From the NCBI GenBank assembly GCA_048939625.1, contig JBHLPH010000011.1, forward strand, positions 1 to 62,581: a DNA stretch of 62,581 bases, in the 5' to 3' direction. The stretch's first letter is position 1, and each line of letters starts with the position of its first letter. This document shows, in pieces, positions 24,130 through 54,185 of the stretch. The position numbers and the translations under genes were made by a program. Under the pieces are notes generated by a model. That model saw only the letters and a list, made by a program, of their open reading frames with translations, did not search any database and had not been told where the DNA came from. Origin of the DNA: Promethearchaeota archaeon. GTDB lineage: Archaea; Asgardarchaeota; Hermodarchaeia; Hermodarchaeales; Hermodarchaeaceae.

Positions 24130-26230
24130 TTAACTCAATCCTCTTCTCTTCTTAATTTGTTGAATTATTTCGTCTGCTCGGGTTTCAGGGATAACCTGCC
24201 ACCGAGCAAATTTTGTTTGCCAAATAGCTTTTCCTGCGGTATTAGAGCGTAATGTGTCAGCTAGATCAAAGGATTCTGAAACAGGTAACGATCCCGAGAT
24301 TGAAACCCACTCTTCTTTGAATTTTACGTCTTCTACGTTTCCCCTTTTTGACATAATGACTTTGACAGTCTCTTTCTGAAAGTCGACAGGTACGCTGACC
24401 TCAATATTATATATTGGTTCGAGTAGTGCAGTGCCTGCTTTTCTGAATCCAAGGAAAATCGCTTCGCGCATTAGGGACATAAGTTCGACTCTGCTCCGTT
24501 CAGCTGGTTCAGGGCTCAGTTGAATATCAATAATCTGAATCAAAGTATTTCCTATGGGTTCACCGCACATGGGCCCCCTTTCCATTGCCCAATTGAATCC
24601 TTCAATGATTGACTCTTTCTCACCATGTGGGATTGTCTTATCTGTCAGATTAACAAGGAGATTTCCCCGAGAATCCTTTTGCCATAATGTTTCCTCGACG
24701 AAAGTCTCGCTTGGGATATTCACCGATATGCGCAAAGCGTTCTTTCCATTAGGGCTTTGGTGATATTTTTCTAAAGATACACTTTCTCTTACGGTTTCTC
24801 GATAAAGAACAATGGGATCTGAGGCATAAACAACTATCCCGGTTTTTTCTATATCTTTAACTGCAATTTCTAAGTGCAAAAGACCAAGACCAGAGAGTAA
24901 ATTTTCTCCTGTTTGTTCATTAACTGAGTAGATTAGATTTGGATCACTTTTTGTAATGCTTTCTAGGTAACTGAGTAGTCGAGGTAAATCCTTCGTTCTT
25001 TTGGTTTCAATAGCGATAGTTACTACTGGTTCACTTAGGTAAGTAATTTCTTCAAAAGGTACCATCCCTTCAGGTGGATCTTGTCCTGTTATAGTATCCC
25101 CTGACTGTATCTCTTCGGATCCAATAATGCCGCAAATATTGCCAGCTGTTAAGGAGGGGACGACAACTTGACGAGACCCCATAAATAGGGTAACTCGTTG
25201 TGTTTTGAAAATTGATTTGGATGGGTAATGCCGAACCTGAGTTCCTTTTCGAATGGTGCCTGAAAAAAGCCGACCAACGGCAATCAGTCCATGTTTCGAT
25301 TCAGAAATTACCTTGGTAACACCAATTACCAGTGGGCCTTCTGAATTACAGGAACGAAGAGCTTTGCCTGCTTGAGAAGAAATCTCGCCTTTCCATATAT
25401 CTTTCACACGGTATTCTTGAGCCCGCTTGGGGGATGGCAGATTGCTCGTTATCATGTTCAAGATAGGTTCATGTATAGGTAGAACTTCGCTAAGCTTCTC
25501 AATCTCTTGGTCCTGATAGATTTTGATTATATCATTAAAGTGAAGATTGGCTGTCTGCATTAGGTCAATTGTGAAAGCCCATTTATGGATGGCAGAGCCA
25601 AACGCCACCGTCCCCAGATCGGGATTAACTATCCAAGGTCCATCACTATCATCAGATACAAAGATAATGATTTTGTTTACATCTTGAATTATTTTTGCTA
25701 ATCGTTCCTGGATTTGTTTCGATGATAGTTTTAGTTCACGAATGAGCCGGTCGATTTTATTAATAAAAAGAACGGGTTTTACTCTTTCTTTAATTGCTGA
25801 TCGTATTACACTTTCAGTTTGAGCCATAACACCTTCCACGGCATCTACAACTACAATAGCTCCATCTATAGCTCGTAAGGCACGGGTTACTTTACCACTG
25901 AAATCAACGTGGCCTGGAGTATCAACTAGATTTACCACAAAGTGAGATCCATGATATTCATGGAGAAGAGAGATGTTAGCTGACTTGATGGTGATTGAGG
26001 CGCTTGCGATTTTTCGCAAAAACGTTTCCTCGCCGTTGCTCTTCTTCTAAGTAATCCAATGCACGTGCTTGACCAACAAGATTGTTAGAAAGCATTCCAG
26101 CATTAGCAAGCAGCGAGTCAGTTAACGTAGTCTTTCCATGATCAATATGGGCAATAATCCCAACATTGCGAATATGGTCAGGGTTCTTCATCAATTCCAG
26201 TAATTCTTCTAAGCGTTCTTTTCGAGTCAT
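24130..26230 (-). CDS. Elongation factor 2 paralogue (aEF-2p-like), two exons 26230-26026 and 25994-24130, 689 aa after splicing
   Basis: IRNVGIIAHIDHGKTT, DYLEEEQRRG|ITIKSANIS, DTPGHVDF, NKID, GLLHLE, LLEP, LRSNTAGKA. The diphthamide loop reads LSPEPAERS, without the His. Confidence 0.9.
25995..26025 (-). other. Putative 31-nt bulge-helix-bulge/loop intron in the EF-2 paralogue mRNA
   Basis: GAGG-AA|A-CGTTTTTGCGAAAAATCGCAAGCG-CCTC-AA|T. 4-bp GAGG/CCTC helix with an internal hairpin; excision gives CGA GGA ATC ACC (RGIT). Confidence 0.85.
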
Positions 26231-38263: not shown

Positions 38264-38379
38264 TGGTGCGGGGGGTGGGATTCGAACCCACGAAGGTCTA
38301 CACCACAGGAGCCTCAGTCCTGCCCCTTTGGTCAGAACGTGCCTTCAACGTTCTTTAGACCATGCTCGGGTACCCCCGC
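38264..38379 (-). tRNA. tRNA-Leu(GAG) with a 28-nt D-loop intron (38328-38355); CCA encoded
   Basis: Acceptor GCGGGGG/CCCCCGC, arm CAGGA-CTGAGGC-TCCTG, long variable arm, TTCGAAT loop. Intron motif GGTC-TA|A...GACC-AA|A. Confidence 0.93.
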
Positions 38380-49179: not shown

Positions 49180-49289
49180 TGGTGCCGCGTCGGGGATTTT
49201 CACCAGACGGAACAAAATCCCGAAAGGATTCGAACCCCGGTCCTAAGGTCGAGAGCCTCAGATGATTGACCTGGCTACACTAACGCGGC
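49180..49289 (-). tRNA. tRNA-Glu(CTC) with a 32-nt T-loop intron (49197-49228); CCA encoded
   Basis: Acceptor GCCGCGT/ACGCGGC, arm TGAGG-CTCTCGA-CCTTA; BHB TTCG-AA|T...TGAA-AA|T. Confidence 0.92.
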
Positions 49290-49432
49290 TATGACGAATG
49301 AGTTCAAATGTCGCTTTTTTAAACTTTCGACCACGGTGACATTAAAAAGGGTTAACACTTTCAAACCTACAAAATCCTAATAGCCTACCAAAAATATCGC
49401 CGTATCAATATGATTAGCTGGAGTGAATCTCT

Positions 49433-54060: not shown

Positions 54061-54185
54061 TGGTAGCCCGGCGCGGATTCGAACCGCGGTCCCGGGGTGA
54101 CTTCACTGTTCTTATAAGTCACAGTTCCAAAGCCCCGGATGATTGACCATTTTGCATCCCTGATTGGGTGCTACACTACCGGGCT
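54061..54185 (-). tRNA. tRNA-Gln(TTG) with two introns: D-loop 54151-54169 (19 nt) and canonical 37/38 54099-54126 (28 nt); CCA encoded
   Basis: Acceptor AGCCCGG/CCGGGCT. Intron motifs TGTA-GC|A...TGCA-AA|A and CTTT-GG|A...GAAG-TC|A give the mature loop CTTTGGA. Confidence 0.9.

What the first reader, a model, noticed from the sequence alone, without database searches (positions are those of the whole stretch)
25995..26025. Candidate tRNA-endonuclease-type (BHB/BHL) intron inside a protein-coding gene, the EF-2 paralogue
Seen: the ORF track splits one EF-2 into an 84-aa and a 629-aa piece. Between ...EEQRRG and ITIKSAN... lies a 31-nt frame-breaking insert. On the mRNA it reads GAGG-AAA-[CGTTTTTGCGA AAAA TCGCAAGCG]-CCTC-AAT: a perfect 4-bp GAGG/CCTC helix, a 3-nt bulge and an internal hairpin. 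Cutting after the second nucleotide of each bulge and ligating gives CGA GGA ATC ACC ATC (RGITI) and a continuous 689-aa ORF. The outer exon-exon helix is weak, so this is a relaxed bulge-helix-loop, like the D-loop tRNA introns in this window. Established: EndA cuts at these bulge positions and RtcB ligates; the well-known archaeal mRNA intron is crenarchaeal cbf5. Inference: an EndA-spliced mRNA in a probable Asgard archaeon, placed in an essential GTPase motif so that unspliced mRNA makes only a dead 84-aa peptide. This could be a splicing-controlled switch, conceptually similar to eukaryotic HAC1/XBP1 splicing. I am not aware of a prior description in this gene.
Basis: partly seen in the sequence, partly recalled or inferred. 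Interest (0 to 1): 0.95.

Follow-up and report, generated by a model that had tools for sequence, protein, structure and literature searches.

The report
tRNA-type mini-intron splitting Asgard EF-2 paralogue
A 31-base insert shaped like an archaeal tRNA intron breaks the gene for an EF-2-like translation GTPase in this Hermodarchaeia-type Asgard archaeon. It is conserved with matching base-pair changes in every close relative, so the messenger RNA almost certainly has to be cut and re-joined, which the papers I could search report inside an archaeal coding sequence for one gene only (cbf5).

Summary
On the minus strand, a 68-codon exon (..EEQRRG) and a 621-codon exon (ITIKS..) are separated by 31 nt (window 25995-26025). 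Removing them joins aEF-2 profile positions 67 and 68 exactly.

The insert folds as GAGG-AAA-[hairpin]-CCUC-AAU: a 4-bp central helix between exon and intron, 3-nt bulges, an inner hairpin and no outer exon helix (class HBh').

- **Conservation:** the same-site insert (31 nt, once 30) is in all same-genus orthologues recovered across the junction, in a second genus and in nine metagenome contigs.
- **Covariation:** 96% of pair cells are paired and 8 of 12 pairs show double changes. One pair links a synonymous exon site to an intron base.
- **Selection:** exon 1 has dN/dS of about 0.08. Nine of 16 orthologues have no start codon for exon 2.
- **Natural control:** an intron-less allele reads ..CGA GGA|ATT ACA.. 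and is placed deep inside the interrupted clade in the tree.
- **Enzymes:** the genome encodes alpha and beta EndA subunits, with the loop lysine tied to broad specificity, and RtcB.
- **More cases:** I confirmed such introns in its cbf5 and a Rab-like GTPase gene, and at two other EF-2 sites in other Asgard lineages, one in a sole canonical EF-2.

No RNA data exist, and the 'regulatory switch' idea is untested. Earlier notes of this scan report the same kind of intron on other Asgard DNA, EF-2 included.

The parts
26026..26230 (-). Exon 1 of the EF-2 paralogue (aEF-2p). It runs from the ATG to ..EEQRRG plus the first base (A) of the Ile codon, and contains the P-loop AHIDHGKTT.
   Evidence: Translation. 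Matches aEF-2 profile positions 2-67. Among 13 orthologues pN is 0.12 against pS 0.70, median dN/dS about 0.08, and the start codon is conserved.
25995..26025 (-). 31-nt HBh'-class (relaxed bulge-helix-bulge) intron. The predicted cuts lie between 26026|26025 and between 25995|25994.
   Evidence: Sequence. Same-site insert in 20 aligned orthologues, with covariation. Single copy in the genome.
24130..25994 (-). Exon 2 (UC ACC AUC.. = (I)TIKSAN.. to the stop codon). It holds the rest of the G domain (DTPGH, NKID) and domains II-V. The domain IV loop LSPEPAERSR lacks the diphthamide histidine.
   Evidence: Translation. Profile positions from 68 onward. Domain IV comparison. dN/dS about 0.04 over the first 80 codons.
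26028..26031 (-). 5' strand (GAGG, exon) of the central 4-bp helix H.
   Evidence: Pairs with CCUC at 25997-26000. In the 19 distinct aligned sequences (20 rows), pair 12-44 is A-U in 11, G-C in 6, C-G in 1 and G-U in 1. The exon side of this pair is the synonymous third position of the Arg codon.
26025..26027 (-). 5' bulge AAA. The cut falls after the 2nd A.
   Evidence: Invariant in 20 of 20 sequences. The Gly codon is always GGA in intron-bearing genes, but GGC, GGG or GGA in intron-less relatives.
26001..26024 (-). Inner intron hairpin (h'): CGUU(U)..(A)AGCG, then GCGA-AAAA-UCGC.
   Evidence: RNAalifold consensus. Seven of its 8 pairs have changes on both sides.
25997..26000 (-). 3' strand (CCUC, intron) of the central helix H.
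   Evidence: this helix is paired in 98.7% of cells.
25994..25996 (-). 3' bulge AAU. The cut falls after the 2nd nucleotide. No outer helix closes this bulge.
   Evidence: The second bulge nucleotide varies A/G/U among orthologues, with no effect on the predicted protein only if the cut follows it. No exon-exon pairing is visible in the alignment.

Best explanation
The 31 nt are an archaeal splicing-endonuclease (EndA) intron of the relaxed HBh' class, inside the coding sequence of the EF-2 paralogue aEF-2p of a Hermodarchaeia-type Asgard archaeon.

In the pre-mRNA, four exon bases (GAGG, from the Arg-Gly codons of the switch-I motif RGITI) pair with the last four intron bases before the 3' bulge (CCUC). 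A 3-nt bulge (AAA) and a covarying intron hairpin lie on one side, and a 3-nt single-stranded AAU lies on the other.

- **Inferred:** the heterotetramer-type (alpha-beta) EndA of this organism cuts after the second nucleotide of each bulge. RtcB then joins ..CGA GGA A to U CAC C.., giving ..RR-G-I-T-I.. and a 689-aa GTPase. The 31-nt intron is released, probably as a circle.
- **Inferred:** splicing is most likely constitutive and obligatory. Unspliced mRNA can only give an 84-aa P-loop fragment.
- **Shown:** the sequence anatomy, its conservation and covariation, selection on both exons, and the presence of the enzymes.
- **Favoured but not settled:** one intron loss within the clade (branch supports 98-100, but AU p = 0.065).
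- **Not shown:** the RNA processing itself.
For: 1. **Exact restoration.** Exons 1 and 2 abut at aEF-2 profile positions 67 and 68 with no residue missing or added.
2. **Conservation.** An insert at the same codon (31 nt, 30 nt in one species) is present in all 12 same-genus orthologues recovered across the junction, including the window's own. It is also in one genome of a second genus of the family, in 9 of 80 metagenome loci and in a divergent genome titled 'Hodarchaeota'. About 50 database clusters at 49-100% identity (the window's own included) are all N-terminally truncated gene calls.
3. **Covariation.** 96.1% of pair cells are paired, against 32-50% when the partners are slid. Eight of 12 pairs changed on both sides, and 0 of 500 shuffles reached the observed score. 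The exon's synonymous Arg third position covaries with the intron (A-U, G-C, C-G).
4. **Cut phase.** Only cutting after the 2nd bulge nucleotide gives Ile in all 20 sequences; the naive boundary gives Val in 3 and Phe in 1. At the G3-site intron of other Asgard genomes, the same rule gives the canonical HVDF where the naive boundary gives HVNF.
5. **Not a pseudogene.** Exon 1 has pN 0.12 against pS 0.70 (dN/dS about 0.08), with the P-loop and start codon intact in 13 of 13.
6. **Not a split gene.** Nine of 16 orthologues have no ATG, GTG or TTG for exon 2 in frame after the upstream stop.
7. **Natural control.** An intron-less allele (P0004/L213, with an intein in the P-loop) reads ..AGG CGA GGA|ATT ACA ATC.. 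and is nested within the interrupted clade (SH-aLRT 100, 98 and 100).
8. **Enzymes.** There are two EndA-domain genes. The alpha subunit aligns end to end with Aeropyrum pernix alpha (3P1Z_B, E = 5e-47), including the Lys44 position of the Crenarchaea-specific loop that confers broad specificity (K44 per PMC6379350). The second gene is beta-like. RtcB is present. Asgard archaea are reported to have (alpha-beta)2 EndA with this loop (PMC5829648).
9. **The same architecture elsewhere, read by me:**
   - own cbf5, 40 nt, CUGG-AUA..CCAG-AAA, giving NLDKPPGPTSHEV;
   - own Rab-like GTPase, 30 nt;
   - a P-loop-site intron in two other lineages, AUGG/CCAU versus CGGG/CCCG;
   - a G3-site intron in the only EF-2-family gene found (diphthamide motif present) in each of three species. 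A congener and a second genus lack it and read CAC GTA GAC TTT.
10. **DNA support.** The insert stands in independent Logan contigs at 38x and is single-copy, not a repeat.
Against: - No RNA data: no run on record as RNA holds the locus, and no spliced (RNA-derived) full-length protein was among the best 120 database relatives.
- The motif lacks the outer exon-exon helix, so it is not a strict hBHBh' substrate. Cleavage depends on an inferred broad specificity of this EndA.
- The single-sequence fold energy is unremarkable (z = -1.05).
- The AU test does not quite reject a tree in which all interrupted genes form one clade that excludes the intron-less allele (p = 0.065). Intron loss is therefore favoured, not proven.
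- My generic motif-plus-ORF scan of the genome was no richer than its decoy. The motif alone has little predictive power without the comparative evidence.
Confidence: 0.88

Rival explanations
1. Translational recoding: ribosomes cross the insert by a +1 frameshift (adding about 10 residues) or by bypassing ('hopping'), as in phage T4 gene 60, and the conserved hairpin serves as the recoding signal.
For: A conserved hairpin directly after the break, and a frame change of +1 in most orthologues.
Against: - There is no matching take-off and landing codon pair: GGA precedes the insert, CUC-A precedes exon 2.
- The 30-nt variant is in frame but carries a UGA, so it would need a different recoding mechanism.
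- Exon-1-frame stops lie inside the insert in G012, G014 and G016.
- The insert evolves by base-pair covariation, not codon conservation.
- Ten extra residues would sit between RG and ITI of switch I.
- The intron-less allele and outgroups have no such residues.
Confidence: 0.03
2. A truly split gene: an 84-aa P-loop peptide and a 621-629-aa remainder are made separately and assemble, and the hairpin serves translational coupling.
For: In G000 a TTG lies 24 nt upstream of exon 2 in its frame. Gene finders call two ORFs.
Against: - Nine of 16 orthologues have no start codon in the exon-2 frame between the upstream stop and ITIK.
- The break lies inside switch I.
- The residues encoded by the insert are not conserved.
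- The helix pairs exon bases with the 3' end of the insert and places both boundaries in 3-nt bulges, a geometry with no role in re-initiation.
Confidence: 0.03
3. A pseudogene: a redundant EF-2 paralogue inactivated by a small insertion and now decaying.
For: It is a paralogue lacking the diphthamide loop. Relatives carry another EF-2 of about 802 aa.
Against: - Both exons are under strong purifying selection at saturated synonymous divergence.
- No second disruption is seen in about 20 orthologues.
- The insert itself is conserved in length and structure.
- The same kind of insert sits in the sole canonical EF-2 of three other species.
Confidence: 0.02
4. A sequencing or assembly artefact.
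For: None beyond the general risk in metagenome-assembled genomes.
Against: Logan contigs of two public runs (possibly one data set) carry the insert at about 38x without variants. Homologous inserts occur in dozens of independent assemblies.
Confidence: 0.005

Closest known systems
BHB intron in the cbf5 pre-mRNA of Crenarchaeota (Watanabe 2002; Yoshinari 2006; Yokobori 2009, as cited in PMC5829648 and PMC7714728)
   Same: A small EndA-type intron inside an archaeal coding sequence. The host has a hetero-oligomeric EndA. The intron shows lineage-specific gain and loss, and the ORF is restored only after excision.
   Different: The host gene is an EF-2 paralogue, the site is switch I of the G domain, and the phylum is Asgard (Hermodarchaeia-type). 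The motif lacks the outer helix (HBh'). The cbf5 intron was shown to be spliced experimentally; this one was not. This genome's own cbf5 also carries a 40-nt intron.
Non-canonical (HBh'/hBH/BHL) tRNA introns of Thermoproteales and Asgard archaea (PMC6379350; preprint 10.64898/2026.10.13.758758)
   Same: Identical architecture: four exon bases pair with intron bases upstream of the 3' bulge, the bulges are 3 nt and there is an intron-side helix. Sizes are similar. The same enzymes are presumed to act. This genome's tRNA genes look heavily interrupted: ARAGORN finds only 17 tRNAs, 10 of them with introns.
   Different: The host RNA is an mRNA, so the cut phase must preserve a reading frame. There is no tRNA body to help position the enzyme.
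BHB intron in the 5' UTR of Haloferax volcanii HVO_1309 mRNA (PMC7714728)
   Same: EndA processing of an mRNA, confirmed there in vivo and in vitro.
   Different: That intron lies in the untranslated leader and does not interrupt the coding frame. Its host is a euryarchaeon with an alpha'2 EndA.
HAC1/XBP1 unconventional splicing (IRE1 plus tRNA ligase/RtcB)
   Same: Spliceosome-independent removal of a small frame-changing intron from an mRNA, by an endonuclease that recognises stem-loops. In metazoans RtcB does the ligation.
   Different: The endonuclease (IRE1) and its motif are different. That system is stress-regulated, whereas nothing here indicates regulation.
Inteins in the P-loop of EF-2 family genes
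   Same: A selfish insertion at a highly conserved GTPase motif of the same gene. Close relatives (L133, L213) carry an intein at GK|TT, the codon where other lineages carry a 31-nt intron.
   Different: An intein is translated and removed at the protein level, and it is hundreds of codons long.

Membership tests
Archaeal EndA (bulge-helix-bulge) intron | [quoted passage not shown] | tested here: met
   GAGG/CCUC. Paired in 98.7% of cells over 19 distinct sequences, with compensatory A-U, G-C and C-G at one pair.
Archaeal EndA (bulge-helix-bulge) intron | Two 3-nt bulges that hold the cut sites, such that excision restores the mature RNA | tested here: met
   The bulges are AAA and AAU. Cutting after the 2nd nucleotide of each gives RG-I-TIK in 20 of 20 sequences and a gap-free aEF-2 profile match.
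Archaeal EndA (bulge-helix-bulge) intron | At least one flanking helix (h from exons or h' from the intron) | tested here: met
   The intron hairpin h' has 8 consensus pairs, 7 of them with changes on both sides.
Strict hBHBh' motif | Outer exon-exon helix h closing the 3' bulge | tested here: not met
   No pairing can be drawn between alignment columns 5-10 and 49-54. The motif is HBh' only, so it is not a strict-BHB substrate.
Archaeal EndA (bulge-helix-bulge) intron | Host encodes an EndA able to cut relaxed motifs, and an RtcB ligase | tested here: met
   Alpha and beta EndA genes. The alpha subunit aligns with A. pernix alpha, including the CSL Lys44 position. RtcB is present. Activity itself was not tested.
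Archaeal EndA (bulge-helix-bulge) intron | Spliced RNA, circular intron or in vitro cleavage observed | not testable with these tools
   No RNA run holds the locus. No RNA-derived spliced protein was among the best 120 database relatives.
Archaeal EF-2 paralogue aEF-2p (Narrowe et al. 2018, PMC6143161) | EF-2 family architecture, but without the domain IV residues needed for diphthamide, alongside a second EF-2 in the lineage | tested here: met
   The combined aEF-2 profile score is below the curated cut-off. The loop LSPEPAERSR replaces HxDxxHRG. Congeners carry an 802-aa EF-2 with VHEDPAHTK. That second gene was not found in this 87.6%-complete assembly.
Translational bypass (T4 gene 60 type) | Matched take-off and landing codons flanking the gap | tested here: not met
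   GGA precedes the gap and no GGA precedes exon 2. The 30-nt variant needs no frame change.
Group I / group II introns or other curated RNA families | Match to an Rfam model | tested here: not met
   No Rfam family reaches its gathering score anywhere in the window. At 31 nt the insert is also far too small.

The most novel reading that the evidence does not exclude
Splicing of this intron is conditional rather than constitutive. Under this reading, EndA/RtcB activity (or occlusion of the exon-intron helix by ribosomes) would set how much functional aEF-2p is made, making it an archaeal counterpart of HAC1/XBP1-type regulated unconventional splicing. More broadly, EndA-dependent mRNA splicing would be a regular layer of gene expression in Asgard archaea, reaching even the sole EF-2 gene of some lineages.
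Probability: 0.1. Interest if true: 0.9.

Novelty: new member of a known kind. Interest (0 to 1): 0.74.

Why it matters
In the papers I could search (up to late 2026), tRNA-type introns inside archaeal coding sequences are still described as a one-gene curiosity. cbf5 in Crenarchaeota is the only coding-sequence case, and a Haloferax 5' UTR is the only other mRNA substrate.

Here the same mechanism is needed to express a translational GTPase in an Asgard lineage. Related lineages carry such introns at three different GTPase motifs (G1, switch I, G3) of EF-2 family genes. In one genus the interrupted gene is the only, canonical EF-2.

This has three consequences:
- mRNA splicing by the tRNA-splicing enzymes would be essential for viability in some of the closest prokaryotic relatives of eukaryotes;
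- it gives concrete junctions to test by RT-PCR or with recombinant enzymes;
- it exposes a systematic annotation error: about 50 database clusters of this protein are truncated, P-loop-less 'GTP-binding proteins'. That error also affects EF-2-based phylogenies and completeness markers.

Tried and rejected
1. **RNA evidence.** The look-up of sequencing runs listed no RNA holder. Laying contigs of four runs only confirmed the DNA. A database search for a full-length, spliced (RNA-derived) protein found none among the best 120 relatives.
2. **Genome-wide scan of G000.** I scanned for the motif (H of 4 bp, 3-nt bulge, h' of at least 3 bp) combined with ORF-joining criteria. Real and decoy geometry gave 3713 against 3570, 422 against 402 and, with A-rich bulges, 5 against 7 hits. 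The scan is uninformative. It recovered the EF-2 intron but missed cbf5.
3. **A look-alike candidate.** C81(-) 88024-88042 (GGGG-AAA..CCUC-AAU, 19 nt) turned out to be an ordinary gene boundary after a complete penicillin amidase.
4. **Second EF-2 in G000.** It was not found. The C73 hit is EF-1alpha.
5. **Mobile repeat.** No other copy of the intron exists in the genome with up to 6 substitutions.
6. **AU test for intron loss.** Borderline, p = 0.065.
7. **Rfam.** No hits at gathering score.
8. **Not pursued.** No covariance model was built.
Full report
**What is there.**
- The gene lies on the minus strand.
- From the ATG at 26230 the frame reads 68 codons ending ..LEEEQRRG, runs on through 16 unrelated codons and stops (the 84-aa ORF).
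- A second frame reads ITIKSANISLL.. for 621 codons to the stop at 24130.
- Between GGA (Gly) and AUC (Ile) lie 31 nt.
- Against NCBIfam aEF-2 (TIGR00490), exon 1 covers profile positions 2-67 and exon 2 begins at 68. Nothing is missing or duplicated once the 31 nt are removed.

**Structure.**
- The RNA reads GAGG-AAA-[CGUUUUUGCGA AAAA UCGCAAGCG]-CCUC-AAU.
- The minimum-free-energy fold of the single sequence shows the GAGG/CCUC helix, the 3-nt bulge and the inner hairpin. Its energy is not exceptional (z = -1.05).
- No exon-exon helix closes the 3' bulge.
- In the usual nomenclature this is an HBh' motif (central helix H, one closed bulge, intron-side helix h'). That class is described for non-canonical tRNA introns (PMC6379350; methods of preprint 10.64898/2026.10.13.758758).
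- In my own scan this motif occupies 6.6e-4 of all position-by-length combinations in the genome. Its coincidence with the exact frame-restoring boundaries is not expected by chance.

**It is real DNA.** Logan contigs of two public runs cross the insert at about 38x with no differences and no indels. Their near-identical depths suggest they may be one data set. The 31-mer is unique in the genome, with no copy within 6 substitutions.

**Conservation and covariation.**
- The window's assembly (G000, 2.31 Mb, 87.6% complete) belongs to a genus with 14 other species genomes in the collection.
- In that search, every orthologue recovered from its first residues (63-75% identity) stops being open just upstream of ITIK. 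Two congeners yielded only the 802-aa paralogue.
- Reading the junctions shows an insert at the same codon in 12 same-genus genomes including the window's own (31 nt, 30 nt in G014). It is also in a genome of the second genus of the family.
- Nine of 80 metagenome loci and one more divergent genome carry it too. The rest, at lower similarity, are contiguous.
- In a 20-sequence alignment RNAalifold finds the same structure on its own. 96.1% of pair cells are standard pairs, against 32-50% when partners are slid by 1-3 columns. Eight of 12 pairs have changes on both sides, and no shuffle in 500 reaches the observed covariation.
- The most telling pair links the third, synonymous position of the exon's Arg codon (A, G or C) to an intron base (U, C or G). 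The helix between exon and insert is itself under selection.
- The Gly codon that supplies the first bulge base is always GGA in intron-bearing genes, but GGC, GGG or GGA in intron-less relatives.

**Where the cuts must be.**
- The second nucleotide of the 3' bulge varies (A in most sequences, G in three, U in one).
- If the cut follows it, as in archaeal BHB substrates (the rule as I recall it; the papers I read say only that the bulges hold the cut sites), every sequence gives ..RG-I-TIK.. .
- With the cut one base earlier, the same genes would read V or F at this very conserved position.
- The same rule works elsewhere. In three species of another family a 29-nt insert ACGU-AGA-[hairpin]-GCGU-AAA in the G3 motif gives DTPGHV-D-F only in that phase. 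Intron-less relatives (one congener, one from a second genus) read CAC GTA GAC TTT and CAC GTG GAC TTC.

**Rivals.**
- *Pseudogene.* Exon 1 has pN 0.12 against pS 0.70 (median dN/dS 0.08). Exon 2's first 80 codons have dN/dS 0.04. The P-loop and start codon are intact in 13 of 13 and there are no further lesions.
- *Split gene.* In 9 of 16 orthologues the exon-2 frame has no ATG, GTG or TTG between the preceding stop and ITIK.
- *Frameshift or bypass.* The 30-nt variant is in frame but contains UGA. Several inserts carry exon-frame stops. There is no take-off and landing codon pair. The insert evolves as paired RNA, not as codons.
- *Artefact.* Excluded above.

**A natural intron-less control.**
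- Among about 50 database clusters at 49-100% identity (the window's own included), all gene calls are truncated. They start in the insert or at a later Met/Val and lack the P-loop. For one of them the contig shows a separate 100-aa GTP_EFTU call just upstream.
- The single exception, P0004 (contig L213), has an intein with a LAGLIDADG domain in the P-loop. It reads ..AGG CGA GGA|ATT ACA ATC.. without the insert. L133 is similar.
- In a maximum-likelihood tree P0004 sits deep inside the interrupted clade (SH-aLRT 100, 98, 100). This implies a precise loss of the intron.
- The AU test against a tree that keeps all interrupted genes together gives p = 0.065, so this is favoured, not settled.
- The data do not say whether the loss came from a spliced cDNA or from co-conversion during intein homing.

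**The machinery.**
- G000 encodes two EndA-domain proteins and RtcB.
- The 186-aa one aligns end to end with the catalytic alpha subunit of Aeropyrum pernix EndA (3P1Z_B, E = 5e-47), without a gap through the Crenarchaea-specific loop and with a Lys at the K44 position. The literature ties that lysine to cleavage of relaxed motifs (PMC6379350).
- The 198-aa one is beta-like.
- Asgard archaea have been reported to carry (alpha-beta)2 EndA with this loop (PMC5829648).
- ARAGORN finds only 17 tRNAs in the genome, 10 with introns. This fits the heavily interrupted Asgard tRNA genes described in the 2026 preprint.

**Not an isolated case.** I read four further examples myself.
- This genome's cbf5 is broken by 40 nt, CUGG-AUA..CCAG-AAA. 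Excision gives ..INLDKPPGPTSHEV...
- Its Rab-like GTPase on contig C12 is broken by 30 nt, CATG-ACA..CATG-AAA, just before the switch-I Thr.
- A 31-nt intron at the P-loop (GK|TT) occurs in two other lineages. Their central helices differ (AUGG/CCAU and CGGG/CCCG) in step with synonymous His/Gly codon changes.
- The G3-site intron sits in an EF-2 that keeps HEDPVHRGPAQ. It was the only EF-2-family gene found with this query in a 95%-complete, 8-contig genome.

Earlier notes of this scan list the cbf5 and Rab cases, a dnaG case in this genome, and similar mini-introns (EF-2 included) in other Asgard genomes. I used them as leads. I checked the first two and did not check the rest.

**What the gene is.**
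- The domain IV loop reads LSPEPAERSR instead of HxDxxHRG. Congeners have a second, 802-aa EF-2 with VHEDPAHTK.
- This fits the 'aEF-2p' paralogue of dph-lacking archaea described by Narrowe et al. (PMC6143161). That paper mentions no intron or frameshift.
- Record titles of the closest genomes name Hermodarchaeota / Ca. Hermodarchaeum.

**Known or new.**
- Full-text searches found no report of an EndA-type intron in EF-2 or in any Asgard mRNA.
- A 2020 paper and a 2025 reference list still name cbf5 alone. The Haloferax HVO_1309 5' UTR is the one further mRNA substrate (PMC7714728, PMC12397907).
- The mechanism is therefore known. The host gene, the phylum and the multiplicity of sites are new: a new member of a known kind.

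**What remains open.** There is no RNA or biochemical evidence. The simplest reading is a constitutively spliced, selfish or neutral intron that persists where the exon half of the helix is frozen by a conserved motif.

Noticed in passing
L034/L035/L216 (G024, G034, G041) versus L215, L214 (G042, G043): A 29-nt HBh' intron (ACGU-AGA-hairpin-GCGU-AAA) splits the G3 motif DTPGHV|DF. In these genomes it was the only EF-2-family gene found, and it keeps the canonical HEDPVHRGPAQ loop. One congener and a second genus lack it and read the predicted spliced sequence. Splicing would be essential in those species.
   Followed up: partly
L036:275-305 (G036) and L103:84-114 (metagenome): A 31-nt intron at the P-loop (DHGK|TT) of EF-2 paralogues in two lineages. 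The central helices are AUGG/CCAU and CGGG/CCCG, so synonymous exon changes are compensated in the intron.
   Followed up: partly
L133, L213 (P0004), and L017/L019 (G020, G031): Inteins in the same P-loop site (GK|T) of EF-2 paralogues. L213 carries LAGLIDADG and intein-splicing domains. The intein-bearing allele closest to the window's gene has lost the 31-nt intron 35 codons downstream, perhaps by co-conversion during homing.
   Followed up: partly
G000 contig C19:22750-22789 (outside the window): The genome's cbf5 gene is interrupted by a 40-nt HBh' intron (CUGG-AUA..CCAG-AAA). Excision restores ..GIINLDKPPGPTSHEV.. .
   Followed up: yes
G000 contig C12, minus strand (strand index about 38959): A Rab-like small GTPase is interrupted by a 30-nt intron (CATG-ACA-TTCCATCTG-TAATT-CAGATGGGA-CATG-AAA) just before the switch-I Thr. 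Excision gives ..RESYIMTVGTSF.. .
   Followed up: yes
window 38264-38379 and 54061-54185 (minus strand); whole genome: With its intron option ARAGORN calls tRNA-Arg(CCT) and tRNA-Phe(GAA) with long introns in the window. It finds only 17 tRNAs in the 2.3-Mb genome, 10 of them intron-bearing, which suggests many tRNA genes are too interrupted to detect. Rfam at gathering score reported nothing in the window, not even the plain tRNA-Glu at 49215-49290.
   Followed up: no
Database proteins P0003-P0055: All public gene calls for this EF-2 paralogue clade are N-terminally truncated. They lack the P-loop, and the few that carry a source name are called 'elongation factor 2', 'GTP-binding protein' or 'EF-Tu/IF-2/RF-3 family GTPase, partial'. 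This is a systematic annotation error caused by the intron.
   Followed up: partly
G000 whole assembly: The 802-aa EF-2 present in congeners (for example G014:C19, G007:C34) was not found in this assembly. The only other hit, on C73, is EF-1alpha. The likely cause is the 87.6% completeness.
   Followed up: partly
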